DNA from: a virus
Length of the DNA stretch: 64,000 nucleotides
Virus record (IMG/VR): IMGVR_UViG_3300042549_007551
Span: 11,791-75,790 of that record
Strand: one strand, 5' to 3'
The notes beneath the pieces are model-generated. The model was not told the DNA's origin, made no database searches, and worked only from the letters and a program-made list of their open reading frames with translations. The translations under genes and the position numbers were made by a program. Positions 1,333 to 26,300 of this stretch are shown piece by piece. The stretch's first letter is position 1. Each line of letters begins with the position of its first letter.

Positions 1333-1656
1333 ATGTCTTTTAACTTTGAAAGGAGTACAGTGAATGTAAAAGAATTTTTAAATGTTATAGACTTGACTAA
1401 CATAGACATTATTAAAATAAATGGTGAACGATTTATATATGCTTTTATTGAAGACCAATACGGTCAACACTTAGTTGATAATGTCACAATTCAAACTAGT
1501 TATAAAACTTTAACGACAGATAATATTCGTTCAAGTGTAATGACAGACGATATTGATAGCGTTGTAGATTACCTTAATGTAGAACATACACTACCTAACA
1601 ATCCACAATACATTAGTATTGAATTACATATTAAAGTAAAAGAAAGAAGGATGTAA
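1333..1656 (+). CDS. hypothetical protein
   Basis: ORF in operon; GTG at 1360 after AAGGAG is the likelier start. Confidence 0.6.
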   Translation: MSFNFERSTVNVKEFLNVIDLTNIDIIKINGERFIYAFIEDQYGQHLVDNVTIQTSYKTLTTDNIRSSVMTDDIDSVVDYLNVEHTLPNNPQYISIELHIKVKERRM

Positions 1657-1658
1657 TA

Positions 1659-1895
1659 ATGCCTAAGTCTAAAATCAAAAAGGTTCTTGTACCAAAATTA
1701 GATGCAGATACTGTTAATAAATTACAAGAACAGTTAGATGCAGAAGAATCAGAAGTACAAAACTATGAAGATCAAATGGAAGCAGAACTTAATCAAGTAG
1801 GTTTAGATGATAATTTTGTTGAAGAAATTTCTAAACAAGTTGAAGAAAAAACAACTGATTCCAAAGATTTAAAGCCAACACGTAGAGACGCTTAA
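1659..1895 (+). CDS. small acidic coiled-coil hypothetical protein
   Basis: RBS AGAAGGA; E/D-rich. Confidence 0.65.
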   Translation: MPKSKIKKVLVPKLDADTVNKLQEQLDAEESEVQNYEDQMEAELNQVGLDDNFVEEISKQVEEKTTDSKDLKPTRRDA

Positions 1896-1907
1896 CATAA
1901 AAAGATT

Positions 1908-1928
1908 AGCCCACTTCACGGGCTTTCT
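1908..1928 (+). terminator. weak hairpin terminator
   Basis: AGCCC-acttcac-GGGCT-TTCT. Confidence 0.4.
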
Positions 1929-2037
1929 AACTAAACTCTTTATTGGGGTAGTCGGGTAAGACAATCTATAAACCTTATGGGCTAAAGATTGTAACGTGGG
2001 TTCAACTCCCACCTACTCCACCAAAGAGTTTAGTTAG
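1927..2037. repeat. 15-bp perfect inverted repeat bracketing the tRNA-like gene
   Basis: ctaactaaactcttt (1927-1941) / aaagagtttagttag (2023-2037). Confidence 0.9.
1945..2023 (+). ncRNA. tRNA-like RNA resembling the isolated tRNA-like domain (TLD) of tmRNA, with Ala identity
   Basis: Acceptor stem GGGGTAG/CTACTCC with G3-U70, discriminator A, encoded CCA; T arm GTGGG-TTCAACT-CCCAC; 9-nt stemless D region; 7-bp ACAATCT/AGATTGT stem closing an 18-nt non-anticodon loop. Confidence 0.75.
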
Positions 2038-2107
2038 GTTAACTTATAAGCACCACATAAGTTGATACATCTACCCCCTCTTTCTTTCTACGGTGCTAAA
2101 GTTATAT

Positions 2108-2131
2108 GGGTATAAGAATAAACTTATACCC
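2108..2131. terminator. hairpin between convergent transcription units
   Basis: GGGTATAAG-aataaa-CTTATACCC directly after the giant gene's stop codon. Confidence 0.6.
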
Positions 2132-2133
2132 TA

Positions 2134-5100
2134 TTAACGGAGTGCAACACGACTACGTCTATACCGTACATACTGACGCCACTTTGTATTCTTAACTAAA
2201 CTATAAGGATTAACTCTAGGCTTACGCATAGTTCCGTACTTAGTAAACCAGTCTCTATAAATATTTTCATACTTAGCCCAACGTCCATTGCTACCATAAA
2301 GATAACGATAACGTTTCGGTGTGTACTTTTCATAATCAGGTACAGTATACAAAGGTAATATGCCTGAACTTAATGGAATGATTGGGTTTTTATTCTTAGA
2401 AACAAACGGAGCTAAAGGACCTTGTGTTAACTGTTCTCTTACAGGTAACTTATTAAGTACGTTACTAATAGGACCTGCAATAGCTAACTGTCTTATGCTT
2501 TGTAAAACATCTTTTGTTTCTAAAAACTTAGACAAACCTCTTAATAAAGGACGTTGTCTATCTAATAACGAACGACCTGGATCACTTAGTAATTTTTGTA
2601 CATCAAACAAACCAAACCCAAGACGTATACCAACACCATTATATATACGTAACCAACCGTTTTGCATTTCAAATAATTCAAATGGACTGTATTCTCCATC
2701 ATCATCTGTGTATTGTCCATACACACCGTCAATAATATCACTCAATAATACAGACATTCTTGGATCTAATATACGATCAATCCAGTTTGTTAAGGAACGA
2801 ACAGGGAAAGATAAATAAGGTATGTCTGCAAGTAACTGCATTTCTAAAGGACTTCTTAATCCGTAATTAAAAAATCGTTTAAGAGAAGAGTTAACAGCTT
2901 CTTGGAAAGTGTAACCTCTTAACTGTCTGTCTAATAAGTAACCTGCAATACGACCTACGTTTTCTATGTTAGCGTTTAAATCAGAGTAAGTATATTTATA
3001 ACCTTTATGAACTAAACCTAATAAACCTTTATTAAATAAACCATTCTTTTCTTTTTCTATTTCATCATAAACTTCTTTAAAGGTTCTTGTTTCAGTATCA
3101 TTGAAATCATTTAACTTTCTTTCTTCTACAATATTTCTTAAGTACTCAAAAGTTTCTTGTCTATATACGTCTACTTGTGCGTTTGTTTGCATGAAAGCAC
3201 TGACTTCAAACAATATCTTTTTAAGATCTTCATAGTCAGCAGAGTACACAGGTTGACCGTTGCTATCTAAAGTAGTTTTATATTTTTCTAAACGTTTATT
3301 AATACGTTGACGATAAAGATTTGTTTCTCCTGGATTAAACTTTAATGAATCGTACAATGTAAAATATTCTGCGAACCTTGTGTCCCCTAAAAAAGCTACT
3401 GATTCTTGAAGAGCAATATTATATGTAATATTTTTTAAAGCTTTTACATTTTTAAATTTAGAAGTAACTTTGATATTATCTAAATCTTTTATATCTTTAA
3501 CACCAATAACAACGTTTAAAATATAATTACCAATACCTTCTAAACGTTGACTAATTTCTTTTGCTTTAATTAAACGAGTTTCTATTCTTTTTTTAACATC
3601 TTCTTTTTTAATAGCTTCTGCACCGTCAATATAATTTTTTAATCTATCTTTTATAATATAAAAGTTTTCTGTGATCGTTAAAACTTCTTCATTTGTTACG
3701 TTATCTTTCTTTAAAAGTAACGATAACATCTTATCATATGCAGTTTTAACTTCTAATAAACTTAATAAACGTTCTTCAGATACATCTTTATAAATGTTAT
3801 AAACATCGTGAGTCAACCCCATGATTCTAACGATTTGTTTTCTATTTTTAAATGCACCGAAAACACCAAAGTCTTTATAGAGTTCACTATATAATTGAGT
3901 CCATGTATCTAAATAGTTTCTCATAATAAACCCATAGTTAAATCTCATTAATAACTTTTCAAGGTACTGTAACTGTGCTAATATGTTTGACCAACCACCT
4001 TTAAATCTAAATGGTTTATAAGCTTGGTTATACAAACTCATTAATGAATCGATTGTTACAAATCCAAATTGTAAATTAACACCTTCATCAGCTTGATATT
4101 TTTTAATAAGATTAAATATTTTTTCTAAATCTTTCCAACTTCTAACATCAATTTGTTTAGTAGTTAAAGATAAATCTTCTTTAAAATTAATATTATCTAA
4201 ATCTACACTAGTATATTCTTTACCATTAAAAATAATTGAATTAACTTTTTTATCTTTAGGGTCATTTAATTGTTTGACATATGATTCTATTTCATCAAAG
4301 CTATTAAATCTTACTTTATCTCTATGCTTCGCCGCCCCTATGAACTGTTGCCAACGTGTTTTCTTTTCCCATTCTGGGTCGTTTTTTCTAAACAAATCAC
4401 CAACACGTTTTATTAAACCTTCAGAAGCGTAACCATCTTTTACCACAACTAGTCTAATAAAATTAGAATTACGTTTAACATGTTCATACATTGTTTTAAA
4501 ATCGTATACTTCTTTTTTAGTTTTGTTACCATTTTGGTCTACAACAATAATGTCTTTTTTATACATACTTGCTAACGTAATAAAAGGAACAACTGATTTA
4601 TCAATGTTCATTAAATTAGTATGTTTAATTCTTTCAACATCTTGTTTACTTAAAGTTTCTTCATCACCCATGATTCTAGGTATACCTTGCTTTAATAAAT
4701 CCATGCTTTCGCCTTCAGGAGTATGTAATAAAAACATACCTTGAGCAAACTTACGTGAGAATATTTTAGATATAACTGCTAGTTTAATATCACGTCTTCT
4801 CTTTTCTAACTCTAATAATTTCTTGTTAAAATAATCTAAGGTATCTTGTTTGCTAAGATCTTTGACTTCATCAATAGCTAACTTTACTTTATTTTCTTCG
4901 TTTGATTTTTGTAATATAAGATTACCTAATGTTTTTATTCTAATTTCTTTACGTTTTATTTCATCGTTTTTACTACGAAGATTATTGTCAGCCACATTTA
5001 TTTCTTTTATGTATCTTTCAATACGATTAAATGATAATTCTTTATTCAATAAACGAATTGCAATATCATTAACAGTCGTTTTATCAACAGTTTTATTTCT

Positions 5101-8100
5101 GCTGTTATATATTTTTTGTTTGTCTTCTGTTACTATTTTAAATTCTTTAAATGCGCTAATAAGAACATCTATTAAACTATCAATAGTTACTACGTCTCGT
5201 AAAGATTCTAAGTCTTGGTCTTTTATAAACTCTAAAGCAGTTAATCTTTCTAAGTCGCTGGCATTAGTTTGTTCTGAACCAAGCGCTTTGCTATAACTAT
5301 TACCATACGGTTCTAATAATTCACTTGCAATAATACTTGCTTGTTCTTTTAAGGTAGATACAGTTGCACTGTTTTGACTTTTATTTAAACGTTGTGTAAC
5401 GTTGCCACTTTCAATATCAATGTTAACGTAGTTAGCATCTACTTCTCTTGAGCTTAAAAAGAAATCTTTACTTGCTTGATACTTCTTATCTAGGTTTAAA
5501 CGTAACTCTTCTTTGGCATTATAACCATTAAACTCAAGTAATAACTTATATAAGTAAAATGTTTTATTTAACCACGATATTTCTTTACGATCAATTCTAT
5601 CATTTGATTCAGTACCACTGCTATAGCGTGCGTTAATTTCGTTATACGTATTATTTGCCACATTAAACAACCTTAAGATTCTATAAGCAGGCATTTTTAT
5701 AGCAACTAATTCACCTAAGAAAGCATTAACAGTACCTGTTACACCGTTAATAGTTACTTCCGTATCTAATGATTCTTCTAAAGCACCTTTGTTTTTGTAG
5801 AAAACAATTGCAACTTCTTTAATAATATTAAAATAATAAGTTGAAATTTCATCAGGTATTTTTGAATCAGGGAATAATTCTTTCTTAGCATATTGATTTA
5901 TAACTGTAGTAATATCATCAATTGCTTTACTTTTTCTAGTGTAGCTTTGTGCTATTTGTACGTTTTTACTTTCTTCATTGTTGTCAATTTCTTTTTCTAA
6001 TTCTAAATTTCTTATTGATAAATTATTTGTTTCAATAGGATCACTATCTAATCCAATTGCCAAAGCGTTTTCATGTGCTTCATCTAAACCAATCGTTACT
6101 TTTCTTACACTTAATTTATCTACATTTTCTTTAACACGTTTTTTAAAGTCTCTTAAGAATTTAGTAACATCCATTCTTAAAGCACCGTGCTTTGCAATAC
6201 CAATAATAATTGTAGCATCGTTAGATTGTTTTCCTAAAATACCACGATCTATAATAACTTGATCTAAGTAATCACTACTATAGATATCAGCCATTGTACT
6301 AATGGTTGGTTTCTTTTTATCGTTAGTAACTTTATCGTTATCTTTGATTGCTTTTTTAAACTTTTTAACGTCTGCGTTATTTCTTCCAAAGTAAAATAAA
6401 TGTAAATACATTTCTTCTACTTCATTTAATTTAGTTTGTTCCATATTTCTTTTAACTAAGTCTCTGTATTTTTCTATTAAAGAACGATAAAAAGGATTTA
6501 GTATATCATCTTCTTTATTAGCAGGCTTTTGATAGTACTTATCAAAGTGTTTTACAATAGCACCCAATTTATATTCTGATTTTAAAGCAAACCCAAATGA
6601 AGACATCTCTTGTCTAACTAATAAAGATAAATAATTCTTATCAAAAATTAAACCTAAGATTTCATCAACACTTTCTTTAAAGTATTCTTTGTATTTAGCA
6701 GCATCTTCTTTATCGATATATACTTTTTTATCTTTATCATAAGCAACTTCTTTAAACCAACTATCATAAATAGTTTCGTTTAACTTTCCTTTAACTTTAC
6801 TAATAAAAACTTTCTTGTCTTTTTCTAGTTTATTTTTTCGGTCAGTAACATTTAAACTTAAATCAGATTCAATATTAATATCGTTAAGTATTCCTTTTAA
6901 ATTTGTTGCGCTTAATATTTTATCTGAGAGTGATCTTATTGTTACAACACCTAAGTTAGATTTAAAAGCGTGCCAAGCATTTCCTGTTTGATCTTTATTC
7001 ATACCTAAGAAAGGACTTATAATACTTGTTACGTTTTGTATTTTTCTTAAACCACCAAATACACCGATACCGTTTTTAGATGCTTGGAAACGTGTAATAG
7101 TTTCAATCAAACTTTGAGTATGTAATATTCTTAAAAACAATTTATAAATAATTTCTTTATCTTTTTCGTTTTTTCTTTTGAAAATAGTTTCAACTTTATT
7201 TTCTTTTATATATTGTTTATCTTCTAAACTAAAATGTTTTTCAATAACTTCATCATTAACTAATACTAAATCTTCTTTAGTCATGTACTTTGTAACATTG
7301 TATTTGTTGTTCTTGATGCTTTGATCAAACAAATAGTTTCTAGCTGCAATTTTATAAAGCGTTTCGTTTGTTTCTAATATTTTATTGACCGCATCTTTTG
7401 AATCATATTCTTTTAATTCAAAACCTTCGTATGCGTTTTCATTATATACTTCACGAATTGCTACGTTTAAAAAATACTTTTTAGCTGCGTCATCATTTTC
7501 CCAACCAACAACTTTTGGTATTTCTATTTCGCTAATATCCTTTTTAATACCGGCAAAAATAGTTCCATATAATTCTCCAAAAGAATATGAGGTTCTAATA
7601 GGTGTGCCACTTGCTCCTTTAAACACAGCTTTACCAACACTTGTTGCCTCAGTACTAATGACATCGGTTCTTCCGTTGCTTTTTACATTAGTAAGTAATT
7701 CTTTTCTTACACTTTCTAAGTATCCTTTTTCTTTCTTCTTAACGTTATTAATAGAATCCCAGCTCCAGAATCCTTCATCATAATAACTTTCTTTAGTAGC
7801 ATCATTCTTAAAGAATAAACCTTTATTAAATTGTTCATTGTTTAAAGCTATCATACCGATGGTATCACCGTCGTTATCAGCACCCATCATTTTATACATG
7901 TAAGGATTTGCTTCAATAGTTTCATTAGTATGATACCCAACAATCTTTACTGTAGGTGTAGACTTAGCGTCTTGGATAGGCCAACGTGCAGCTAATACCC
8001 AACCAAACTTAATACCTTTATTATTTGTTACAAATTTTACTGTATATGTTTTACTATCAACAACATACATTTTGTTTTCTTTGCCACTTATATTGTCGTT

Positions 8101-11100
8101 TGTTATCCCAGATTTATTTAAGTGAATAATAAAATCTTCTAGTTCTTGTTTAGAAGATAATTTAACTTCGTCTTTGTTATTAACAATAGATACGCTGTTG
8201 TTTTTATAATTTAAAGCAGTATTTATATTAAAACCATTTATTATTTTTGACCAAGAAGCGTCATCAATTCTGTCTATTTGCAGCCAATCCTTATTCTTGC
8301 TTAGTTCTTCCCATCCTTGTCTTGAAGTTCTTAGTTGGCCTAACATTAAATCAGTGTTAGCTAATAATTGTTGTCTAATACCAGGGTGTTTTCTATAAGT
8401 ATAAGAAACAATAGCACCTGTATTTCCAGTTAAAAATTCGCTAGCTCTATTCATAGCTTTTAAGTTTATTTTAGGTAAGATAATTGTTTCTAATTTTAAT
8501 CTTGTTTCTTGATTGCTTGTTCTTATAGAGAAGTTTTTATATGTTAAGTAATTAATAACTTCATCTACCATTGGTGTGTTGGTTTCTAAACTAATTTTTT
8601 TAGCCATAGCTTCAATGTCATAAGTACCGTTTGATTTTTTAATAGAATACTTTTCAATGAAAGGAAGTAACCCGTTGTTTTGTATTTCACTAAACACTTC
8701 AATTTCGTTTCTATCTTTTTGATCTAACAATACTTTCCAATTCACACCTTGTGCTTCTAATATTGCTGAAAAGGATGGAGTTATTGGTACACCACCGATG
8801 ATGCTACCTTTAATATCCCGTTCAGCAATGGATATATTTTCTTCTTCAATCAATCTAGTTCTAACATTCATTTTTTCTGCAGTATGTTCTGCATCTAAAA
8901 TGACATATATTTCACCGCGTTGAATATCAATTCCTTTAAAGTTTAAAGTATTAATATCTCCGTTACTTAAAATATTGTTAACAATTAAATCATCTTTAAT
9001 AACATCATATATAATGTCATTCCATACTGAATGGCCATCTGATGCTTTACCAAAAATACCGTCTAATATTTTTGCGTAATCTTTAGCAGCATCTAATATG
9101 ATCTTACCTTCTCTAATTTTAAACGTATCTTTTAATTCTTTTTCTTTACTTCTTAATACACTTAAGTTGTTTTTTGTTAAACCATACTTCTTTAGTAACG
9201 CGTTATCTGCAATATTTTTATAACCATCACCTTGTAATTCATCATTAACTAAATACATTCTAACTGCGTTTAAAGTTTGTTCTAATACTGCTCCACCTGC
9301 ACCACGCTTAACTAAAGATTCTTTGTTAGCGACAATATCAACGCCAAACTTTTCTTTTAAACCAACTACATAACGTATGCCACCCTTAAAACCCCACATC
9401 CCTAACCAAGTTTTATTACCTTCATCCATTCCTACAGCTTTAGCATACTCAGCATCAATTAACAAAGCGTCTTCAAAAGCACCTGGATGATTAATAAACC
9501 CAACAATAGTATTAACACCTATCTTATGTAAGATATCTCGCTTATAAAATTGATATTGTTTTTCTGTTAAATAGTTAGGTGTAAAGATATTAATAACTTT
9601 ATCTTTACCATTCTTATCTTTATAGGTTCTTAATAATCTACTAGTAATGATTTCTTTTTCTTTTGGATCAGCGATACTATCAATAAACTTACCTAAGTTG
9701 TCTTCAATAGTTGTAGCGTTTAACTTATTTAAATCTTCGTATTCGTAATAATCATTAATAATCTTATAAGGAGTATACTCTAAATAAAGTTTATTAAACG
9801 ATAATACAATACGCCCTGGGTTTGTATTTAATGTATGAGGCATATCAACATTAAGTGCTGTTAAAGGTGGGTTAGATTTACCAGCTGAACCTTCTGCAGA
9901 TTTTTCTAAATCTAAACTTAAACGCACTACATTTTTTCTAGTCCATATAATTAAAGGACTTGTTGAGTACTGTGGATCAACTAAAAATAATAATTTTGCA
10001 GGGTCATTAGCTTTAAACTTTGATAATATTCTGTCAGCAATACCTCGGTATACCTTAACAATGTCTGAATCTTTTTCGTTACGTTTCGCGCTTTGATAAG
10101 TATCATAATATCTAAAGAATCTTTGCTTTAATACCGTTGTCATATTAATACGTTCTAATGCGCTGTCTGGTATAGCATCATCAAATACTACAGATTCTCT
10201 AAACGCTGCTATTTCCTTTGCTTTAATTGCTTTATCTGTTTCGTCTTGGGTGTATTCAAACAAACCATCTTTTTGATGTTTAGCTGCTAGTTTAATAGTT
10301 TTTTCAATACTGTTATAGCTAGCGTCTATTCCATCTTCTAAGTAAATAGCTTCTTTATTTAAACCTGAAAAACCTAACTTACGTTTTCCACTCTTATCCG
10401 TATAGTTAAAGAACTTAGTTTTTAACCAGCCTTCCATGTCTTCATTAGGCTTGGGTCTATAAACAATGTCTTTAGTTTTAACTTCTAAAATTTTACCTAC
10501 TTCAACATAAGTATATCTAAATTTAAATGTTGGCATACCACCGCCAGTAGTAAACTGATAATAGTTATATATGTTATTTTGATTATCCATATAACCAACT
10601 AAATAAAAATTATCAGATGGAGATTTAGCAAGAGCTATATCGTCCTTTACAATTAAAGCTTCTTTATCTAAACCACGATGAGCATCTTTATATACACGTT
10701 TAACATTTTTAACGCCTAGTTTGTTTATAAACGATTGCTCTTCTCTTTCAGTTGCTACTCGTTGTAAACCATCAAGACGTTCATCTGGTGTAAAGTTATT
10801 AATATTTTCTTCGTTTCCGTTTAAAACTGTAAAAATATTGCTTCTTTCAAATTCTGTTTTAATACGTTCTGTATTTCTTAAGACAGAAATAACTTCTAAA
10901 AATTTATTAGTAATAACTTCGTTATTAATTTCTGTATTGTTTTTTGGTACGCCAATCTTTAAATCATTTAAAAAACTAATGTTACTGTTTACATAGTCTA
11001 GTTCTTTTTTTAAAGCCAATGTAATAAGTGTTCTTAAATTAAACTTGTCTATGTTTTTAAGTATCTTTTTTTCTTCTTCAATAACACTTATTAATCCTCT

Positions 11101-23100: not shown

Positions 23101-26100
23101 TTTTTTTTCGTAGTCACTAACTTCAGTTTGTATTCTTTTAAAATTCTTTTTATTAATAACAATTTTAATACCACTACTAGTTTCATAATTTAAAACAGGG
23201 TAATCAATGTACTCTTCATTTTCTTCATAAGCTTTTTTTCTACTTTCAAGCGCTTGTTTTGCTTGATCTAAAATATCACTTTGACTATCAATAGTATCTT
23301 TTTCTGCACTTTGTTCAACCTGTTCTTTTGTTGTTTGTTGAATAATTTTAGATAATGTTTTATTAGTTTTCTTTTGCTTGTTTAAAACTTCATCAAAAGT
23401 TTCATTAGATTTTTTAACAGAGGTACCTGTTTTATTTATATCAATAAGTTCTTTATTAATTGTATTAACGTCTTTTTCAATTGCTTCAAATTTTTCAATT
23501 GTAATAGCAGCTTGTTTAGGATTAATGTTTCTTCTTAAATATTCAAAAAGTTTTTCAACAGAAAAAGATAAACCTTTAAAAGCAACTGACATAGGGTTTG
23601 CTACGTGTGTTACTATTCCAGCAAAACTATCTACATTATCAATATGATTTTTTAAACTTTCAAAGTTGTTATATAAATTAGAACTAACTTTAGAATTGAT
23701 TTTTAAATCAAAGTCTTTATAAGCTTTTGCTAATAGTTGTCCTTCACTTAACGAACCACCGTACAATGTTTTAAGTTCTCTAAATGTATTATCAAAACGA
23801 CCTATTAAAGCTATTTGATTTTCTGTAGGTGTTGTACTCTTACGAGCTTGTTTGTATCTTCTATAAGAATTTTCTAATTCATTTTTAAGTTTAGCTGAAC
23901 CTACTTTATAAATATAGTTTTTATTTTCTAAAACATTTGTAAATAAATTGTCTAAAATATTAAGCTGTGAAGAAATATCTAAAGTATACACTCTAGCCTT
24001 TTGTCCAAACTGAATACCACCAGAAGCAAATTGTTTGTATAAAATTTCTTGTACACCTTTTCTACCGTTGCTTATCCAAGCTCCTACTAATTGTTTTAAG
24101 AAAGCTTGTTTAGCTGTAGGATCGTTTATCTTAAAACTAAAAACGCCATCTTCATCCACAAGTTTTCCTAAGCTGTTAGCTGCAGCTTTTGTTTTACCTG
24201 TCATTTTTAACTTACTAGTTTCATGTTCAACTATTCTTGATAGCACATTAGTACCAACGTCTATCGTATAAGTTTGGTAATACTTATTAACAACTTCGTT
24301 AAAGTTTTGTGGGTCAATTAAAAGCTCACCTAATGTAGATATTAAAGAGTTTCCTATTTCACCTAAGTTTAAATTAGCAGCTTCACGGATATCATCAAAC
24401 ATAACTGATCGATATAACTCGTTACTATAACCCCAAGATTTTGCTAAAGCATCAGTCATTGCTTTAGAATCACCTGAAACTAAACCAAGTAACACTGCTT
24501 TGTTTCTTGTAGCACCATATAAGTTATCGTTAATATCCCCGTATAAAGATATTGCAGAAACAAAACTAACATCATCAGGATCGGTTGCTTTCCAAGGACT
24601 AAATTGATCATCTAAAGGAGCGGTAATACTAGTAACTGCTTGTAATGTCATCATTGATAATCCTGCTCGAACCTGATTACCAAATGCGTTTGTACTTAAC
24701 CAACTACCTATACCAGTTAACGGGTTGTTTTTACTCAGTAAACTAAGATTTTTATTGATACGTAAACCACTACTCAACCATCCTGTTAAAGCTGGTACTG
24801 CAATCGTTGTTAATAATGTAGCAATCGAACTAATCGGACGTTGCATCATACCTGCATATAAGTTTTGTGCAAACATTTCTTGTGCTTTAGCACCTTCTGG
24901 ACTAAATGAACGACCAACAGTTCTTCCTACTAAAAATCCTTGTAGTGCTGAAACAGCTATAGAAGCTACTGTACCGATGCCGCTTATTGCTGAACCAATT
25001 AAACCACCACCAGCAACTTCTATTGCGCTACCTGTTAAAGCAACTGTATCTGATATAAGTGCTAATGCATTAAATGCTGTATTAAATATATCGCCTTGTT
25101 GAACGCTTTGAGCTAATCCAACTGCTGAAGTACCTAAACTATAGATGTCTGCGGCGATACCTAAACCAGGCACAAATCTGGCGCCTGCTTCACTAATACT
25201 TTTAAAGAATGTTTTACCAGCTTGCGCGCCTTTTTTTATAGTAAGTTTTGCTGCATCAACAATAACACCATTTGTTTCTAATATTTTAGCAGCTGCAGTT
25301 ATAGTTTTAGAAGCGTCATTTACAGTGTTTGTAATACGCGCCGAATCATTTAACATGTTAGTAACGTCTACAACATCCTCAGCTTTTGCCGCTATTTTAA
25401 TAGCTTCATCACTATTTTTTACAATTGAATTACCAGCATCTACTATTTGTTGTTGTGCTAGTTTAACGCTTTGATCTAAGTTTACTAAATCTTTTTGTGC
25501 AAGGTCAAAAGCTTGTTGAGCTTGTATCTTTAAAGGATTATTTTTACCTAATCGTTTTACTTTTTTTAAATTAGCTTCTGCTTTAATAAAACTTTTATCA
25601 GCAATTTTCTTTAGCTCTACATTGTTTGTTAGTGTAGCTTCTAAAGTAGCTTTATTTACTTTAGATAATTCTAAGTTTTTAACACTTTCAATAAACTTAG
25701 GATCATAAGTTTGTAATGTTTTTTTAATTTTATAATCTTGTTTTAGTAAATCATTTGCACTTTTTACTTGTTTATTATAATCAAGAACAAGCGATTCATT
25801 AGCTTTAATATTTCTTAATTGTTTAAATCTTGCGTCTTGATAACGTGCTCTTTTAGGATCAAAGGTAGTAGAAAAAGGATTTTGCCATGATTCTTTTTTC
25901 CAGAACTTTTTATCAATTAATGCTGAACGAAGGTACCCACTGTTTAAAGCAGCGCCTACACCTGCACCCACAAGACCGCCTAAGTTACCAAATAAATCAT
26001 ATGTTCCAGTATCTTCTATCCCATATCGGTTTCGAATGCGCTCCATAAAATCTTCGTTGTTAACAGCAAAAGGTGAGATTGCCCATTGTTGTAATGATCT

Positions 26101-26250
26101 TACAAGTACTTGATTTGAAGTAGCGCGCGCTTGTCCAAACCCTCTAAGCCCTTCATAATAAGGTGCTAATGCAGGTCTAGAATAAATATTTCCAGGATAT
26201 ATTCTAGTCGTTCCTGCTAATAAAGGTTTTCGTGGATATAATAATGCCAT
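2134..26250 (-). CDS. giant (8038 aa) virion/ejection polyprotein containing a single-chain two-barrel RNA polymerase and a DEDD-exonuclease-like domain
   Basis: GADNDGD (aa 6123-6129) with RWP 36 aa upstream; beta-like AFEDALLI, GNKTWLGMWGFKG, VDIVANKESLVKRG, EHTAEKMNVR, GGVPITPSFSAILEAQG; DEDD-like VVLDMET and VAHNGKRFD; located next to the capsid gene. Confidence 0.85.
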   Translation of the reverse strand: MALLYPRKPLLAGTTRIYPGNIYSRPALAPYYEGLRGFGQARATSNQVLVRSLQQWAISPFAVNNEDFMERIRNRYGIEDTGTYDLFGNLGGLVGAGVGAALNSGYLRSALIDKKFWKKESWQNPFSTTFDPKRARYQDARFKQLRNIKANESLVLDYNKQVKSANDLLKQDYKIKKTLQTYDPKFIESVKNLELSKVNKATLEATLTNNVELKKIADKSFIKAEANLKKVKRLGKNNPLKIQAQQAFDLAQKDLVNLDQSVKLAQQQIVDAGNSIVKNSDEAIKIAAKAEDVVDVTNMLNDSARITNTVNDASKTITAAAKILETNGVIVDAAKLTIKKGAQAGKTFFKSISEAGARFVPGLGIAADIYSLGTSAVGLAQSVQQGDIFNTAFNALALISDTVALTGSAIEVAGGGLIGSAISGIGTVASIAVSALQGFLVGRTVGRSFSPEGAKAQEMFAQNLYAGMMQRPISSIATLLTTIAVPALTGWLSSGLRINKNLSLLSKNNPLTGIGSWLSTNAFGNQVRAGLSMMTLQAVTSITAPLDDQFSPWKATDPDDVSFVSAISLYGDINDNLYGATRNKAVLLGLVSGDSKAMTDALAKSWGYSNELYRSVMFDDIREAANLNLGEIGNSLISTLGELLIDPQNFNEVVNKYYQTYTIDVGTNVLSRIVEHETSKLKMTGKTKAAANSLGKLVDEDGVFSFKINDPTAKQAFLKQLVGAWISNGRKGVQEILYKQFASGGIQFGQKARVYTLDISSQLNILDNLFTNVLENKNYIYKVGSAKLKNELENSYRRYKQARKSTTPTENQIALIGRFDNTFRELKTLYGGSLSEGQLLAKAYKDFDLKINSKVSSNLYNNFESLKNHIDNVDSFAGIVTHVANPMSVAFKGLSFSVEKLFEYLRRNINPKQAAITIEKFEAIEKDVNTINKELIDINKTGTSVKKSNETFDEVLNKQKKTNKTLSKIIQQTTKEQVEQSAEKDTIDSQSDILDQAKQALESRKKAYEENEEYIDYPVLNYETSSGIKIVINKKNFKRIQTEVSDYEKKAGPDLDAVVKAGQKGNDKVTLEYVAKRNALLNYTYITKHRKVLSQVFVLMDAGLVHVNELTTVAQQSLFNVLKVINGFKIFSNETVFIKSSLVINEELATLQEENKELEKEKVDLKKQVNKLLKITKNVKATGEEKLKASEEIIALETSITKIQNAQDKKATTIKTLKDKLEIIKNNPKKDEDVQRNTYNKQRAIDEFIEGDEGDALVDLANQYGIKVALVDKDGNEIERATLKTITPSNRKKKVVDVQISFVKTIEQDIVSLIYNLLPDGFETTLLLKGLINFDADDIEKNWDKQTTAAKINTLIRIIKKLELDSYISADKVKSFGGLLGVVEAINKVIENKNKPTFRSVEDVSLTELKEIVFYKLLNQKNGLFKQKLDTVNKLFERADKQIEKITKVLDSDSEKNKADKKAIKDILDQELRRINNFLQYNEMYSYVKSYYYNSINVNKDINLFLSDEAKKELLPDFITEDELKNWNKLSIPDAVSKLNSIDTAFIKFLEERESNVVESEYILQKDEVLSDKEFLTEYDTMIEELIETKEIRKQEEAKKNTIKKAVSSTLSVQSTIVKQLENIPQSLLTNLLFKLSTSDIEKDKNNPYNALKKILAGGFSVLNIKELRFNFRMAMFINSDSETIDDAKSYKETLKGLKRTSSGHYYFLEKVLKELVRLDKEKVITIDWDTLSNSKEGKKVKVFSKRGETFKSDSYKIRLLGDLYNKEEDIDIKLPLDGKEQKRLNRIYYQSVNESIRNYFDENNIEYDKDYLKDFIEKLISGDKSITADVYKLIAGNALKIMTIKLQDLYAFNNKHRYLKNIIDKGIRATEIKDIRASSDRHYTLSTSVYKALSISDDKHKDLLDDIITFSNFQTFGNYEDENSIKPAFNLKSGLMQVVYFLNSFIETDKAFKKEVDFKELDYFAFEDKQIVIYIKNDKNKVSRKVYLLEYLLTHHVNIRIVSSIIDRLKTNTVAKGTLTPETASELGNKLLNEYQDAVKKFGSSIVTAPLTISRELFKGTDEEYALVNDINFINAYGSLNTLLFLETQYESADPKFLKRKNRYSNIQLVLKPEIFYYLEKANTEFKKPETTVVINGKTINKPVSSDILFILYVLDAKDIPQETKELLVKKVFFYQGTVGKGVATLNKIEELNGVVLRQNNRIALLKNRKDSKSKNIKDQISDLENEVIDIQRRINAYENFRNNIKDKALEEDFNAFYKYIVDNPEKVETMFYNNRSTSDDSNIAIAYDPATKEYMVVEHYDGNGNSNIDESGVKGLPNYNSEIGEKIISKHNTELHTEGSKKIAKVLKEKGYDPYVLTLRDISETGAVIIVSKDNLETAFSEFNNLVKFALKDKTSKDKNIYFMTEEQHKDILEMRRTKKYINTFDYVITKDKNGNINGELKSNYINIKSSTSRSGQGGILGGFLKDVENLQKLADRLKLSREDLVKKLTEFARIKKEYTIVEPGDVVNINFNQTNLFKRVVRLARKEKAFARFLELLYNDFGSFDIDVIGRNFFTDRYIKENYNFNNFESDLRRENYRLYEQLTEIKINATNIGPDIKITLLDAIKNALIVMQKEYKNEDITFNNYNDIYNKEFLKTIEQLKDVAYSFVSSLKYTHNIYYKKLIKKLQDYFGSGLEGFITAKEMSTRNNILKHSENKTFVLVNGKKEYNKGLFNAQKVGMLNLINELKEEFNSKQTEGVSLESVLAAQLRRSRALYKESTKANNARVRGTATNLNWTNLFYVIKNLPSTFDIDRMDDKTLIGLASYLNIDDSIFNKFKNEDYLSIKIAIKNTINTYFNQLKSVLELPDDMTLAELITDVKTNNPQVNAILNYIKKYSTMFDDNIKTVSDAEINSIKKDVLKTTLNKYINNISLHANKTNEIYLQINASLSYKKMLEKDPKSTVTLESMIKDLRIQDKDNVKNWYKKPKEDFREENGVNITDVILDNITQTTPSAFNNVVKETIESIVNKAEDVFFGDTSGKAIIKPTFIKNFGSASEYLDSIKDKEARNMTELFINIMFYGGLKKENATIETVAKQFKIDLNKYKQESGKTRLGPIDDNVFKVMSYLLRNKKENKFESPFEVYNLINLPLLDDNKKFKVYLYEYLFGFKDYKGNVIRHTHNEKEKRISLSKKLFNSLGIDFETVENLFTKYNTLDEIMDVLYNTISKNDNMFAFVNIINFAKTQFINNEFKQQWSWQDAVNKFRIGAAKKNIRRIKKLEALNIFETKQQDDPFENSILRSIFNSVSHLSNAGSYVKGINDRLDIIVLKEKDTPDTNVTVKPQLLMTTPNNINKITREATRNAFSAVFKPNTDPSYQSTMAQVIEQTLADFSFHSINEDYAETIDKVSTRNPDSVYLNLMTRYTNVLSLLKGGVDKYDFVKMKEIGSALLVLEQDKKYITLYKKDFERYVKTINDPKKVIEIEEALKDIVKYFNSRGYLIGVNIEQVKAIMGYILVQKFELKTQEGIKDREKLVLQGLMDIQEANISNQLLKLSEIATNIESVHGVKKLLKLIYPESVLNNMSKSERKEAEDRIEKIENLVNVLESSLKLDASTRNVYDTVELGMAANSEMALKQLPTITTWLSIKDTIDELKKELKVVNASQRGFKLNYNFDINENTIINKNMSSLNKAISKLEEAVSGINNSIEVLKDKNAAYKEKLLIDIYNNNPGLMKEFNDYWLTVLDKAEKENKQALEKVKAFIPKEFFQEREKILIELEAEKTYFKTNEYIAFKNIRKKKLQNLYNSKSILILKKYKINITNAAGYKDFILNANKKLDDIDALEQTLSTGPKDSKIKTNSWKKFTKIVLNIEEKNKKRIDNINQYIVNEGYLDEDTQSAKERKIASVKYYLNNIRTVYFSGIKEATKELVKKEQQDLNKLVLNEEATASLVKGKNKYLDKAKYILQELENEFIFTYEFEDFKNYEEEIDNKVKELQDSKLTGVDYKPHDRKYTNVFKKFMVATYIQIALDYKFKKLNIKKKDLTKETVKKETNKYKVLYTLKSEELYKRLKNLIYKINEEDTTYFKSSGFNLKLKTKSLQILKDEKEEYTLDQLETLREEFSTSVNNIIINSKNTDLSKLIYNLKKLKSNIKTTLENIKSAETALENINKYGNQKPEDVIKNIVKRVAKDGISLVKEDEVVSYLLSNEVKAFNDEEDILIKSKEQLNAELSTLKNRRDSINTYTVVNPDKISKLNKRIDLLEEESAPIKLRHDNLLLEAKKNKPYGNSNLDTYRNNYKIKEDVSREALLDSIITEAGNYYQGGKQALLDLIESTNIDGEKGINLHNAVVDNIVTFFNYMKQIELSGKNIPDRFVVLDMETITEKSGRRTPYQLTILNVTRVKGKLMFNVLNQFMTNRIFIDGIEETIDSNGVKTITKSDELEGFYDQQVKMYVKESAGFKAWADINKKKYWDAKALEEYINNNLTKNELDDYTKRIDLTIKNIAGLPNDIEFIRLFVSEINALPNTVPIVAHNGKRFDFVNYNEFIFKLSKTLKTNLYYQLIRQNDPKAVRERLNLLSVEDAVDKGEEVKLIEANKKEINNILNKVNKGIALTDADITAMTRFNQEIGSIIVTKLMKEIEEKLGITVNVKLKEALFTGNNSQIKSVTNIVLEYISTKDPAEKARLKDMLVAYFIEGWKLRHTTDESKNIEKYADALLKDTELEYNNYLEDGVLKEDQGVSIASTGMAIRKAVKKELGIKDTQLNDFEYNEALYSVEKQIEQIKKFIAYVNLSSVKSHKEKVLELKATQDALIKERNQIISEVENLKKEIVTAKVGTDDLKNIIKKAADKIKNIRSNTSYRIQNVLNNQLENAKKRFKYIRTNSVDFGLLKFEIDENLKLLNKTLEEMEILLTLIPADADQKIDLNSQKVKDVLSRMVDPSIIKIKTNEEKNKLLKEFNERQSKLVKLTTGIENGRNIIDAKIEEKIKEIVAGLKKDADIKLKTVEDAWNTVGKSLLGTSFKPVLSNLKASDTDLNIKFNEALSILVSKQNELKDNTTYASLVSLLSKEKGARGLISVIEEEKKILKNIDKFNLRTLITLALKKELDYVNSNISFLNDLKIGVPKNNTEINNEVITNKFLEVISVLRNTERIKTEFERSNIFTVLNGNEENINNFTPDERLDGLQRVATEREEQSFINKLGVKNVKRVYKDAHRGLDKEALIVKDDIALAKSPSDNFYLVGYMDNQNNIYNYYQFTTGGGMPTFKFRYTYVEVGKILEVKTKDIVYRPKPNEDMEGWLKTKFFNYTDKSGKRKLGFSGLNKEAIYLEDGIDASYNSIEKTIKLAAKHQKDGLFEYTQDETDKAIKAKEIAAFRESVVFDDAIPDSALERINMTTVLKQRFFRYYDTYQSAKRNEKDSDIVKVYRGIADRILSKFKANDPAKLLFLVDPQYSTSPLIIWTRKNVVRLSLDLEKSAEGSAGKSNPPLTALNVDMPHTLNTNPGRIVLSFNKLYLEYTPYKIINDYYEYEDLNKLNATTIEDNLGKFIDSIADPKEKEIITSRLLRTYKDKNGKDKVINIFTPNYLTEKQYQFYKRDILHKIGVNTIVGFINHPGAFEDALLIDAEYAKAVGMDEGNKTWLGMWGFKGGIRYVVGLKEKFGVDIVANKESLVKRGAGGAVLEQTLNAVRMYLVNDELQGDGYKNIADNALLKKYGLTKNNLSVLRSKEKELKDTFKIREGKIILDAAKDYAKILDGIFGKASDGHSVWNDIIYDVIKDDLIVNNILSNGDINTLNFKGIDIQRGEIYVILDAEHTAEKMNVRTRLIEEENISIAERDIKGSIIGGVPITPSFSAILEAQGVNWKVLLDQKDRNEIEVFSEIQNNGLLPFIEKYSIKKSNGTYDIEAMAKKISLETNTPMVDEVINYLTYKNFSIRTSNQETRLKLETIILPKINLKAMNRASEFLTGNTGAIVSYTYRKHPGIRQQLLANTDLMLGQLRTSRQGWEELSKNKDWLQIDRIDDASWSKIINGFNINTALNYKNNSVSIVNNKDEVKLSSKQELEDFIIHLNKSGITNDNISGKENKMYVVDSKTYTVKFVTNNKGIKFGWVLAARWPIQDAKSTPTVKIVGYHTNETIEANPYMYKMMGADNDGDTIGMIALNNEQFNKGLFFKNDATKESYYDEGFWSWDSINNVKKKEKGYLESVRKELLTNVKSNGRTDVISTEATSVGKAVFKGASGTPIRTSYSFGELYGTIFAGIKKDISEIEIPKVVGWENDDAAKKYFLNVAIREVYNENAYEGFELKEYDSKDAVNKILETNETLYKIAARNYLFDQSIKNNKYNVTKYMTKEDLVLVNDEVIEKHFSLEDKQYIKENKVETIFKRKNEKDKEIIYKLFLRILHTQSLIETITRFQASKNGIGVFGGLRKIQNVTSIISPFLGMNKDQTGNAWHAFKSNLGVVTIRSLSDKILSATNLKGILNDINIESDLSLNVTDRKNKLEKDKKVFISKVKGKLNETIYDSWFKEVAYDKDKKVYIDKEDAAKYKEYFKESVDEILGLIFDKNYLSLLVRQEMSSFGFALKSEYKLGAIVKHFDKYYQKPANKEDDILNPFYRSLIEKYRDLVKRNMEQTKLNEVEEMYLHLFYFGRNNADVKKFKKAIKDNDKVTNDKKKPTISTMADIYSSDYLDQVIIDRGILGKQSNDATIIIGIAKHGALRMDVTKFLRDFKKRVKENVDKLSVRKVTIGLDEAHENALAIGLDSDPIETNNLSIRNLELEKEIDNNEESKNVQIAQSYTRKSKAIDDITTVINQYAKKELFPDSKIPDEISTYYFNIIKEVAIVFYKNKGALEESLDTEVTINGVTGTVNAFLGELVAIKMPAYRILRLFNVANNTYNEINARYSSGTESNDRIDRKEISWLNKTFYLYKLLLEFNGYNAKEELRLNLDKKYQASKDFFLSSREVDANYVNIDIESGNVTQRLNKSQNSATVSTLKEQASIIASELLEPYGNSYSKALGSEQTNASDLERLTALEFIKDQDLESLRDVVTIDSLIDVLISAFKEFKIVTEDKQKIYNSRNKTVDKTTVNDIAIRLLNKELSFNRIERYIKEINVADNNLRSKNDEIKRKEIRIKTLGNLILQKSNEENKVKLAIDEVKDLSKQDTLDYFNKKLLELEKRRRDIKLAVISKIFSRKFAQGMFLLHTPEGESMDLLKQGIPRIMGDEETLSKQDVERIKHTNLMNIDKSVVPFITLASMYKKDIIVVDQNGNKTKKEVYDFKTMYEHVKRNSNFIRLVVVKDGYASEGLIKRVGDLFRKNDPEWEKKTRWQQFIGAAKHRDKVRFNSFDEIESYVKQLNDPKDKKVNSIIFNGKEYTSVDLDNINFKEDLSLTTKQIDVRSWKDLEKIFNLIKKYQADEGVNLQFGFVTIDSLMSLYNQAYKPFRFKGGWSNILAQLQYLEKLLMRFNYGFIMRNYLDTWTQLYSELYKDFGVFGAFKNRKQIVRIMGLTHDVYNIYKDVSEERLLSLLEVKTAYDKMLSLLLKKDNVTNEEVLTITENFYIIKDRLKNYIDGAEAIKKEDVKKRIETRLIKAKEISQRLEGIGNYILNVVIGVKDIKDLDNIKVTSKFKNVKALKNITYNIALQESVAFLGDTRFAEYFTLYDSLKFNPGETNLYRQRINKRLEKYKTTLDSNGQPVYSADYEDLKKILFEVSAFMQTNAQVDVYRQETFEYLRNIVEERKLNDFNDTETRTFKEVYDEIEKEKNGLFNKGLLGLVHKGYKYTYSDLNANIENVGRIAGYLLDRQLRGYTFQEAVNSSLKRFFNYGLRSPLEMQLLADIPYLSFPVRSLTNWIDRILDPRMSVLLSDIIDGVYGQYTDDDGEYSPFELFEMQNGWLRIYNGVGIRLGFGLFDVQKLLSDPGRSLLDRQRPLLRGLSKFLETKDVLQSIRQLAIAGPISNVLNKLPVREQLTQGPLAPFVSKNKNPIIPLSSGILPLYTVPDYEKYTPKRYRYLYGSNGRWAKYENIYRDWFTKYGTMRKPRVNPYSLVKNTKWRQYVRYRRSRVALR

Positions 26251-26260
26251 GCTGTAAAGT

Positions 26261-26269
26261 ATTATAGCA
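26261..26269 (-). promoter_or_regulatory. extended -10 promoter for the giant gene (near-leaderless)
   Basis: TGCTATAAT ending 10 nt before the ATG; no Shine-Dalgarno. Confidence 0.7.
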
Positions 26270-26270
26270 T

Positions 26271-26300
26271 AAAAAAAACCACTGTAAACTATACAGTGGC
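26271..26300 (-). terminator. Rho-independent terminator
   Basis: GCCACTGTA-tagtt-TACAGTGGT then T-run on the minus strand. Confidence 0.85.

What the first reader, a model, noticed from the sequence alone, without database searches (positions are those of the whole stretch)
2134..26250. 24-kb ORF is apparently cysteine-free and has ejection-protein-like ends
I found no Cys on reading the 8038-aa translation; even 0.5% would give about 40. Coliphage N4 vRNAP, which is injected, is known to lack Cys. The C-terminal ~600 aa (GFIMRNYLD...ENVGRIAGY...EAVNSSLKRFFNYG...E.....IPYLSF) resemble the tails of large podoviral internal/polyvalent proteins. About 3800 aa between the N-terminal region and the exonuclease have no motif I can recognise and could hold further injected effector domains. 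The gene takes up 38% of the window.
Basis: partly seen in the sequence, partly recalled or inferred. Interest (0 to 1): 0.75.

Follow-up and report, generated by a model that had tools for sequence, protein, structure and literature searches.

The report
Giant cysteine-free phage polymerase protein
One gene filling a third of a lake-water phage genome encodes a 0.92-MDa protein with no cysteine at all, which carries a hidden cellular-type RNA polymerase core and is most likely packed in the virus particle and threaded into the host with the DNA, as coliphage N4 does with its much smaller polymerase.

Summary
The ORF at 2134-26250 (-) is 8,038 aa (921.5 kDa) and has no Cys. There is no in-frame TGT/TGC, against 92 and 423 in the other two frames, and 1,505 codons are one substitution from Cys.

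It is not an assembly artefact. Thirty-three full-length relatives (6,661-7,998 aa) exist, and independent lake metagenome contigs cover the 20 kb laid with no frame-breaking indels in the long pieces.

Cys exclusion is a family trait. Twenty members carry 11 Cys in 153,569 residues; one clade of 14 carries 15-28 each. N4 gp50/51/52 and P23-45 gp96 also have none.

The protein contains a single-chain two-barrel RNA polymerase. The beta-like half matches RNAP second-largest subunits (Z 9-11), and R-x-P...DNDGD is invariant. It also has a probable DEDD exonuclease and strongly conserved ends.

The middle ~3,600 aa has no detectable domain. It diverges fast but stays collinear and keeps its length.

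The claimed likeness of the C-terminus to polyvalent or internal proteins is only weakly supported. A BFVD match to LPD38 proteins gives E 1.3e-3, Pfam LPD38 is negative, and the profile comparison with N4-type C-termini is not significant.

Best reading: an N4-style ejected virion RNA polymerase in an API480-like podovirus. Packaging is inferred, not shown.

This scan has already reported giant Cys-free RNAP-bearing virion proteins in other genomes. This is a new and larger family of that kind.

The parts
2134..26250 (-). Giant ORF: 8,038 aa, 921.5 kDa, pI about 9, 0 Cys
24151..26250 (-). Conserved N-terminal module (aa 1-700). It is found in all 33 relatives and is Cys-free even in the Cys-bearing clade.
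24616..25188 (-). Gly/Ala-rich hydrophobic segment (aa 355-545) holding the only TM-like stretch (aa 417-442). Candidate membrane-insertion element.
   Evidence: function inferred by analogy with the N4 gp50 NTD (PMC13434306)
13351..24150 (-). Fast-evolving middle (aa 701-4300). No Pfam, PHROG or PDB match, collinear among near relatives, no internal repeats, patchy heptad-like stretches, GC 25-28%.
12571..13233 (-). Probable DEDD (DnaQ-like) exonuclease fold (aa ~4340-4560), with D4356-x-E4358 and H4511-N-G-x-R-F-D4517
   Evidence: several weak signals that agree; none significant alone
7021..9993 (-). Single-chain two-barrel RNA polymerase core (aa ~5420-6410)
8884..9786 (-). Beta/Rpb2-like half (aa 5489-5789) with FEDA..LID and G-N-K-x8-K-G (K5613, K5622 invariant)
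   Evidence: VIA Z 8.8-11.0 to nine RNAP second-largest subunits, then a drop to Z 6.3; 327 chains at Z>=8 in the second look, all 50 listed rows Rpb2/beta-type; Foldseek top 50 all RNA polymerase entries, almost all beta/second-largest chains
7864..7878 (-). Catalytic-type D6125-N-D-G-D6129 loop, invariant in all members, preceded by invariant R6089-x-P-x-Q
   Evidence: the best local hhalign alignments fall on NADFDGD of E. coli beta' and DFDGD of P23-45 gp96 (not significant)
2137..4053 (-).
2137..2250 (-). Basic, aromatic-rich C-terminal tail (aa 8001-8038; 32% K+R, no D/E), nearly invariant in the family
26271..26299 (-). Terminator-like hairpin plus T8 immediately upstream of the giant ORF
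   Evidence: read
26261..26266 (-). TATAAT -10-like hexamer 10 nt before the ATG; no Shine-Dalgarno core
1908..1924 (-). Terminator-like hairpin about 210 nt after the stop, at the point where the late and replication arms converge

Best explanation
The ORF encodes a virion-packaged, host-ejected, multi-domain protein that brings the phage's own RNA polymerase into the cell.

From N to C it has:
- a conserved module with a hydrophobic Gly/Ala-rich segment (aa 1-700), inferred to anchor in the ejection channel or cytoplasmic membrane;
- a long, fast-evolving, largely helical spacer (aa ~700-4300);
- a DEDD-type exonuclease-like domain (aa ~4340-4560);
- a single-chain two-barrel RNA polymerase in which beta-like and beta'-like halves are fused (aa ~5420-6410);
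- a conserved helical C-terminal module ending in a basic tail (aa 7400-8038), inferred to serve encapsidation or regulation.

The protein would be made late and in low copy, packed into the head, threaded unfolded or as beads on a string through the short tail, refolded, and used to transcribe early genes. The absence of cysteine would keep the thread free of disulfide cross-links in the particle and during passage.

Shown here: the ORF, the Cys exclusion and its conservation, the beta-like fold, the invariant catalytic motifs and the conserved ends. Inferred: packaging, ejection, polymerase activity and the roles of the ends.
For: - Cys: 0/8,038. Twenty members carry 11 Cys in 153,569 aa across two deep lineages. 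The same trait is seen in N4 gp50/51/52, P23-45 gp96 and nearly in phi14:2 gp66, whereas E. coli beta/beta' have 7 and 15. The composition matches this phage's virion module (0.08% Cys) and not its replication arm (0.73%).
- RNAP: VIA Z 8.8-11.0 to nine beta/Rpb2-type subunits followed by a gap. In the second look, 327 chains score Z>=8 and all 50 listed rows are of that type. R-x-P...DNDGD and K-x8-K-G are invariant.
- No other RNAP was detected in the record.
- Position: last gene of the late arm, converging on the replication arm, as N4 gp50 does.
- Morphogenesis genes are closest to podophages.
- Ends are conserved in all members.
- A terminator-like hairpin with a TATAAT hexamer lies upstream, with no SD. 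This fits a low-copy product.
Against: - There is no proteomic or expression evidence, and no RNA run holds the sequence.
- The beta'-like half was folded with pLDDT <50, so only motifs support it.
- Pfam RNAP models and PDB sequence searches find nothing.
- The ends have no significant similarity to N4, API480 or LPD38 proteins.
- One clade tolerates 15-28 Cys, so Cys exclusion is not obligatory for the family.
- The record is only 77% complete by CheckV, so another RNAP could lie in the missing part.
- Threading 0.92 MDa through a tail has no precedent.
Confidence: 0.6

Rival explanations
1. The protein is a non-packaged, intracellular enzyme: a giant phage RNA polymerase or nuclease scaffold made during infection and never put in the particle. 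Its low Cys content would only reflect a phage-wide or late-gene compositional habit.
For: There is no direct evidence of packaging. The whole late module is Cys-poor, so Cys-free does not single out ejected proteins. P23-45 also has a non-virion two-barrel RNAP (10.1101/2022.12.01.518664).
Against: A late-operon, last-gene position is poor timing for the only RNAP detected in the record. The replication-arm proteins of the same phage carry 0.73% Cys. The conserved hydrophobic N-terminal module and conserved ends are unexplained. The Cys pattern matches proven ejected polymerases.
Confidence: 0.15
2. The protein is mainly a structural ruler or internal core (tape-measure-like, or a head inner body). 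Its length, not its sequence, would be under selection, and the polymerase would be a passenger as in the P23-45 tape measure.
For: Length is held at about 7,200-8,000 aa in 33 of the 34 full-length members (one is 6,661 aa), while the middle is barely alignable. Many BFVD hits of the C-terminal model are tape-measure proteins. P23-45 gp96 is a precedent.
Against: TerL, portal and MCP are closest to short-tailed phages. No tail tube, sheath or chaperone genes were found. The gene is last in the operon, not followed by distal tail genes. An 8,038-aa ruler would imply a tail over 1 micrometre long. This reading is compatible with ejection and excludes only the pure-cargo version of the best explanation.
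Confidence: 0.12
3. The ORF encodes a polyprotein that is cut into separate proteins (N-terminal channel protein, exonuclease, polymerase, C-terminal protein) during head maturation or after ejection, as proposed for polyvalent proteins.
For: The blocks are discrete conserved units separated by variable linkers. The polyvalent-protein concept is described in PMC5512222.
Against: No protease or MPTase domain was detected in the ORF or its neighbours. No split forms were found: the 'shorter' searches returned only contig-truncated fragments. The single ORF is kept in every relative.
Confidence: 0.1
4. The ORF is an artefact: a mis-assembly, fused genes, or chance lack of Cys in an AT-rich sequence.
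For: None was found. The only grounds are the extreme size and the single linear, 77%-complete record.
Against: There are 33 full-length homologues from independent sources. Independent contigs from several years are identical in frame. Cys codons are abundant out of frame.
Confidence: 0.01

Closest known systems
Coliphage N4 gp50 virion RNA polymerase (Schitoviridae), with ejection proteins gp51/gp52 (PMC13434306)
   Same: A giant single chain with a tripartite logic (membrane-type N-terminus, polymerase, large C-terminal domain). No cysteine. Last gene of the late arm converging on the replication arm. Podovirus of about 70-76 kb.
   Different: N4 has a T7-type single-subunit polymerase and is 3,500 aa. 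Here the polymerase is a two-barrel cellular-type core and the protein is 8,038 aa with an added exonuclease-like domain. No significant sequence similarity was found, even profile to profile. The head genes are not N4-like.
Thermus phage P23-45 gp96, a tape-measure-fused virion two-barrel RNAP (10.1101/2022.12.01.518664 / PMC10770324)
   Same: A single-chain two-barrel RNAP embedded in a giant (5,002 aa) Cys-free virion protein that enters the host. The best local profile alignment falls on its R-x-P...DFDGD loop.
   Different: gp96 is a siphovirus tape measure with the RNAP at the N-terminus and a metallopeptidase. Here the context is podovirus-like, the RNAP lies three quarters of the way along, and there are no tail-tube neighbours. 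The similarity is not significant (E 0.27).
crAss-like phage phi14:2 gp66 virion RNAP (10.1101/2020.03.07.982082)
   Same: A virion-packaged single-chain two-barrel RNAP in a podovirus, nearly Cys-free (2/2,180).
   Different: No detectable sequence relation. gp66 was not among the listed structural matches, which were multisubunit-type beta subunits including the phiKZ and AR9 non-virion RNAPs. The genome is not crAss-like.
Beta-like subunits of phage phiKZ/AR9 non-virion RNAPs and of cellular and NCLDV RNAPs
   Same: Best fold matches of aa 5489-5789 (Z 10-11), with shared FED and K...KG motifs.
   Different: Those are separate subunits of multisubunit enzymes with Zn-binding Cys. Here the beta- and beta'-like halves are one Cys-free chain with a very short ED-to-Lys spacing. 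Pfam Rpb2_6 and Rpb1_2 do not match.
Phage-type polyvalent proteins with LPD38 (Iyer et al. 2017, PMC5512222)
   Same: Large multi-domain proteins predicted to be packaged and delivered with the DNA. The best BFVD match of the C-terminal model is an LPD38 protein.
   Different: Pfam LPD38 is negative in all 25 family C-termini and in the genome. No MPTase or other hub domains were found. The fold match is weak (TM <=0.25).

Membership tests
Two-barrel (double-psi beta-barrel) RNA polymerase superfamily | Beta/Rpb2-type barrel with two conserved lysines | tested here: met
   VIA Z 8.8-11.0 (rmsd 3.6-5.2 A, 164-196 aligned) to nine second-largest subunits, then a drop to Z 6.3. 327 chains at Z>=8 in the second look. 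K5613 and K5622 are invariant.
Two-barrel (double-psi beta-barrel) RNA polymerase superfamily | Beta'/Rpb1-type barrel carrying the DxDGD metal loop | tested here: inconclusive
   DNDGD and the upstream R-x-P-x-Q are invariant in all members, and local alignments land on NADFDGD/DFDGD. This part of the model has pLDDT <50, so the fold was not tested.
Two-barrel (double-psi beta-barrel) RNA polymerase superfamily | Match to curated sequence models (Pfam RNA_pol_Rpb2_6, RNA_pol_Rpb1_2) | tested here: not met
   No match at E<=10 in the genome, while all 14 control genomes matched. No Pfam hit.
Two-barrel (double-psi beta-barrel) RNA polymerase superfamily | Template-dependent RNA synthesis | not testable with these tools
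   Needs biochemistry.
N4-like virion RNA polymerase (Schitoviridae gp50) | T7-type single-subunit polymerase domain | tested here: inconclusive
   PF00940 found nothing, but its controls did not match either. tblastn against 50,697 phage records was negative. The polymerase found here is of another fold class.
N4-like virion RNA polymerase (Schitoviridae gp50) | Homologous C-terminal domain | tested here: inconclusive
   hhalign of A4 against the Schitoviridae profile gives E 0.24, and 12 of 80 column shuffles score as high. Motif-level likeness only: FxNY[GD]...F..[IV]RS.
N4-like virion RNA polymerase (Schitoviridae gp50) | Cys-free giant chain, last gene of the late arm | tested here: met
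N4-like virion RNA polymerase (Schitoviridae gp50) | Presence in virions and ejection | not testable with these tools
   No isolate and no proteome.
DEDD (DnaQ-like) 3'-5' exonuclease | ExoI D-x-E and ExoII N-x2-3-F-D motifs | tested here: met
   D4356/E4358 and H-N-G-x-R-F-D4517 are near-invariant in 11 sequences.
DEDD (DnaQ-like) 3'-5' exonuclease | ExoIII (H/Y-x3-4-D) motif and a significant family match | tested here: inconclusive
   No clear ExoIII motif. PDB profile hits to the PolB-exo/TREX1 ExoII motif have E 0.17-3. Single members hit Rv2179c-like and DNA_pol_B_exo2 at E 5e-3 to 8.5e-3. In the Atlas, 10 of 10 named neighbours are in the RNase_T/RNase_H_2 clan at 0.85-0.88.
Polyvalent proteins / LPD38 | Match to Pfam LPD38 (PF18857) | tested here: not met
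   No hit in 25 family C-termini at E<=1 or in the genome at E<=10, though the controls did not match either.
Polyvalent proteins / LPD38 | Fold likeness of the C-terminal module | tested here: inconclusive
   Best BFVD hit is an LPD38 protein at E 1.3e-3; 9 of the top 50 are LPD-named, with TM 0.1-0.25. PDB gives only generic helical bundles at Z<=9.4.
Tape measure protein | Siphovirus or myovirus tail-gene context (tube, chaperones, distal tail genes after it) | tested here: not met
   None found. The gene is last in the operon, and the head genes are closest to podophages.

The most novel reading that the evidence does not exclude
This would be the largest known phage polypeptide. It would be threaded whole into the host as a 0.92-MDa cysteine-free string that couples a proofreading-type exonuclease to a fused beta-beta' RNA polymerase and pulls the genome in by transcription. 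Cysteine exclusion would be a selectable rule of tail-channel translocation. One clade of the family would have escaped that rule after a change of host or habitat, so Cys content could be used to recognise ejected proteins and to read their delivery route from sequence alone.
Probability: 0.2. Interest if true: 0.85.

Novelty: new variant of a known kind. Interest (0 to 1): 0.62.

Why it matters
Virion-carried RNA polymerases are known from three unrelated phage groups: N4-like, crAss-like and P23-45-like. This family adds a fourth. It occurs in podoviruses related to Paenibacillus and Bacillus podophages, is more than twice the size of N4 gp50, and has a cellular-type fused beta-beta' core that curated models do not recognise.

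It gives a clean natural experiment on cysteine exclusion. Twenty members are essentially Cys-free across deep divergence, and a single clade has relaxed the rule. This could turn a folk observation about ejected proteins into a testable rule.

It also poses a physical problem: how a 0.92-MDa chain is packed and passed through a short tail. And it leaves about 3,600 residues whose length is conserved but whose sequence is not.

Tried and rejected
- Pfam and PHROGs on eight overlapping pieces gave only sub-threshold coiled-coil noise.
- PDB sequence search with both halves found nothing at E<=1.
- tblastn of aa 5401-7000 and aa 7001-8038 against 50,697 phage records found no match.
- Pfam on 3 x 3,332 aa of three relatives covering about aa 2000-5330 found nothing.
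- ESM Atlas on aa 1-720 returned only unnamed viral clusters at <=0.87.
- The C-terminal profile against PDB found nothing meaningful. The C-terminal model against PDB by VIA gave only generic talin/vinculin-type bundles.
- The RNAP profile against phi14:2 gp66 gave a meaningless 15-column hit. Against E. coli beta, the hit did not fall on the barrel.
- The ends against the 1,631-aa last late gene of API480 showed no relation.
- 'Shorter' searches for stand-alone N-terminal or RNAP modules returned only contig-truncated fragments of the same family.
- No relative was found in 185,579 prokaryote genomes by pattern scan, so there is no host clue.
- No listed RNA run holds the sequence. This is not evidence on expression.
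- The short 'joints' in read laying have 20-22-nt sides and are taken as spurious matches of other AT-rich DNA.
The genomic context of relatives could therefore be read only from IMG/VR and JGI loci.
- The careful tree search did not finish, so the quick IQ-TREE tree was used.
Full report
OBSERVATION. The window holds one uninterrupted ORF at 2134-26250 on the minus strand: 8,038 codons plus stop. A machine count gives 0 Cys and no in-frame TGT or TGC. The other two frames of the same DNA hold 92 and 423 such triplets, and position-specific base composition predicts about 100. 1,505 codons are one substitution from a Cys codon. The product is 921.5 kDa with pI about 9.

The window is bases 11791-75790 of a single 75,790-bp IMG/VR virus record, classed linear and 77% complete by CheckV. 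The gene therefore takes 32% of the known genome.

IS IT REAL? An exhaustive and a word-based protein search together gave 33 further full-length members of 6,661-7,998 aa at 21-33% identity, plus many contig-truncated fragments. In 18 loci from IMG/VR and JGI metagenomes, the homologous frame is open through the whole upstream flank held (10 kb in most loci). The sequence is held by at least 20 lake or freshwater metagenome runs from 2016-2024. Independent Logan contigs were laid on 20 kb of the gene. A 2016 run covers it with two contigs of 12.6 and 10.2 kb and one substitution. A 2024 run not flagged as a possible source covers parts with 0-1 differences and no gaps. The artefact reading is excluded.

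CYSTEINE. N4 gp50 has 0 Cys in 3,500 aa, and the two other N4 ejection proteins, gp51 and gp52, also have none, whereas N4 replication proteins have Cys. P23-45 gp96, the tape-measure-fused virion RNAP, has 0 in 5,002. phi14:2 gp66 has 2 in 2,180. E. coli beta and beta' have 7 and 15.

Within the new family the distribution is bimodal. Fourteen members have 0 Cys and 20 have 0-4, which is 11 Cys in 153,569 residues. Fourteen have 15-28 each. On a quick maximum-likelihood tree of the C-terminal 1,100 aa, the Cys-bearing members form one clade (SH-aLRT 82). The Cys-free state covers the rest, including two deep lineages with terminal branches of 0.2-1.7 changes per site. Even in the Cys-bearing clade the first ~700-1,100 aa carry none, and the last tenth carries almost none.

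This phage's whole virion module is Cys-poor: 6 Cys in 7,126 aa, against 27 in 3,704 aa in the replication arm. The composition therefore places the giant protein with the virion proteins. At the virion-module rate, a zero is expected only about once in a thousand.

WHAT THE PROTEIN CONTAINS. No Pfam, PHROG, PDB-sequence or phage-database match was found for any part. Family alignment shows three universally conserved blocks: aa 1 to about 1000, aa 5200-6300 and aa 7000-8038. Smaller islands lie at aa 3300-3500 and aa 4300-4650.

(a) RNA polymerase. AlphaFold2 on aa 5330-6500 gave a modest model (pLDDT 53) with well-folded parts. Foldseek's top 50 PDB rows are all RNA polymerase entries, almost all beta/second-largest-subunit chains, at E 5e-3 to 0.2. 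An independent all-against-48,161 search put nine such subunits first at Z 8.8-11.0, with rmsd 3.6-5.2 A and 164-196 residues aligned. They are ASFV, AR9 and phiKZ non-virion RNAPs, Pol IV, Pol I, vaccinia, plastid, bacterial and Pol III. The next row, at Z 6.3, is unrelated. In the second look, 327 chains reach Z>=8 and all 50 listed rows are of this type. The matched part is aa 5489-5789. It carries the invariant FED..LID and G-N-K-x8-K-G motifs, which read like E. coli beta ED813/814 and K1065/K1073; that reading comes from established knowledge of the motifs. Downstream, R6089-x-P-x-Q and D6125-N-D-G-D are invariant in every member. The best local profile alignments to E. coli beta' and to P23-45 gp96 fall exactly on their NADFDGD and R-x-P...DFDGD loops, although they are not significant (E 0.59 and 0.27). 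This half of the model was poorly folded, so its barrel is inferred from motifs only. Pfam Rpb2_6 and Rpb1_2 do not match. I put the RNAP assignment at about 0.85.

(b) Exonuclease. D4356-x-E4358 and H-N-G-x-R-F-D4517 are near-invariant. Three independent weak signals all point to the DEDD/RNase-H-like clan. The profile search hits the ExoII motif of archaeal PolB and TREX1 (E 0.17-3). Single members hit Rv2179c-like and DNA_pol_B_exo2 (E 5e-3 to 8.5e-3). Ten of ten named language-model neighbours belong to that clan (0.85-0.88). No ExoIII motif was found. The assignment is probable, not proven.

(c) N-terminus. aa 1-700 is highly conserved and holds a Gly/Ala-rich hydrophobic stretch (aa 355-545) with the protein's only TM-like segment. 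No stand-alone homologues exist.

(d) C-terminus. An exhaustive HMMER scan of 1.84 billion representatives with aa 7001-8038 found only 70 proteins, nearly all from this family. The AlphaFold2 model of aa 7400-8038 is all-helical (pLDDT 65, pTM 0.60). Its best BFVD match is a podoviral 'Large polyvalent protein associated domain 38' protein (E 1.3e-3), and 9 of the top 50 are LPD-named. However, TM-scores are 0.1-0.25 and tape-measure proteins are mixed in. Pfam LPD38 matches none of 25 family members nor the genome. Profile comparison with N4 gp50, and then with a profile of eight Schitoviridae vRNAP C-termini, picked the same region. The score (E 0.24) was equalled by 12 of 80 column-shuffled profiles. 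The resemblance is a lead, not a finding.

(e) The middle. aa ~700-4300 has no detectable domain here or in three relatives. It has no internal repeats, is alignable only among near relatives and is collinear with them. Its GC is low at 25-28%. Heptad-like stretches are patchy: 10% of the whole protein against 3.5% in shuffles. Total length is nevertheless held at about 7,200-8,000 aa in all but one (6,661 aa) of the 34 full-length members. I found nothing to support 'further effector domains'.

CONTEXT. The left arm (+) encodes DprA-like, AAA, primase, SSB, SNF2 helicase, PolA, exonuclease and Sak4-like proteins. The right arm (-) encodes TerL, portal, an LTD+RCC1 tail protein, a BspA-LRR protein, a tail fibre and a 693-aa MCP, then a 112-aa ORF and the giant gene. 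TerL, portal and MCP are closest (24-32% identity) to Paenibacillus larvae podophages API480/SV21 and Bacillus megaterium podophages. A short tail is therefore likely, and a tape-measure role unlikely. The layout has the giant gene last in the late arm, converging on the replication arm; N4 has the same. No other RNAP was detected in the record. A hairpin plus T8 and a TATAAT hexamer lie just upstream of the ATG, with no SD core, whereas 18 of 30 other genes have one. A terminator-like hairpin follows the stop. No relative occurs in 185,579 prokaryote genomes, so the host is unknown.

MECHANISM. The most likely reading (0.6) is an N4-style strategy. By analogy with the N4 model (PMC13434306), the protein is made late in low copy and packed in the head. 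It is expelled through the tail as a loosely folded thread led or anchored by its hydrophobic N-terminal module. It refolds in the cytoplasm and transcribes early genes. The exonuclease-like domain might trim nucleic acid ends or proofread; this is speculative. Absence of Cys would prevent disulfide cross-links in the oxidising environment of the particle and envelope. The single Cys-tolerant clade suggests a change in that constraint. Packaging, ejection and activity are all inferred. Rivals are a non-packaged enzyme (0.15), a structural ruler or core with a passenger polymerase (0.12, not exclusive of ejection), a processed polyprotein (0.1, also not exclusive) and an artefact (0.01).

NOVELTY. 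Giant Cys-free virion proteins carrying an RNAP are a known kind (N4 gp50, phi14:2 gp66, P23-45 gp96). This scan has already reported such proteins in other genomes. This family is new at the sequence level and is the largest of the kind. It has a beta-beta'-like fused core closer in fold to multisubunit enzymes than to gp66. It lies in a different phage lineage and has an added exonuclease-like domain. I class it as a new variant of a known kind.

Noticed in passing
window 26261-26299 (-): An 8-bp hairpin followed by T8 and then a TATAAT hexamer lies between the 112-aa ORF and the giant ORF, and there is no Shine-Dalgarno core before the ATG. This looks like a terminator/promoter pair that would set a low expression level for the giant gene relative to the MCP upstream.
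   Followed up: partly
window 26321-50274 (-): The whole virion module is Cys-poor (6 Cys in 7,126 aa; many proteins have none), whereas the replication arm has 27 in 3,704 aa. Cys avoidance is therefore a virion-wide trait in this phage.
   Followed up: partly
family members P0006, P0010-13, P0015-17, P0019, P0035, P0037, P0045, P0046, P0048; loci L008/L017, L018: One clade of the family carries 15-28 Cys per protein, but none in the first ~700-1,100 aa and almost none in the last tenth. Why the rule is relaxed there (host, habitat) is unexplained.
   Followed up: partly
window 13351-24150 (-) and family alignment: Total length is held at about 7,200-8,000 aa in all but one (6,661 aa) of the 34 full-length members, although the middle ~3,600 aa is barely alignable and has markedly lower GC (25-28%) than the conserved ends (31-40%). 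Length, not sequence, seems to be conserved.
   Followed up: partly
window 1945-2023: Other first-stage notes propose a mini-tmRNA or tRNA-like element here. ARAGORN finds no tRNA or tmRNA anywhere in the window, and a terminator-like hairpin lies next to the site at 1908-1924 (-).
   Followed up: partly
window 39769-45507 (-) and 45500-46831 (-): A 1,912-aa tail protein carries a lamin-tail domain and a full RCC1-like beta-propeller (Pfam WD40_RLD 4.8e-64). It is followed by a BspA-type LRR protein. Both are probably receptor-binding proteins.
   Followed up: no
window 26729-28810 (-): The major capsid protein is unusually long (693 aa). Only aa ~74-518 align with the 313-aa MCP of Paenibacillus phage API480, so it probably carries inserted or appended domains.
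   Followed up: no
L031 (Paenibacillus phage API480) 12564-17459: The nearest cultured relatives by head genes also end their structural operon with their largest gene (1,631 aa, unannotated). It is not detectably homologous to the ends of the giant protein.
   Followed up: yes
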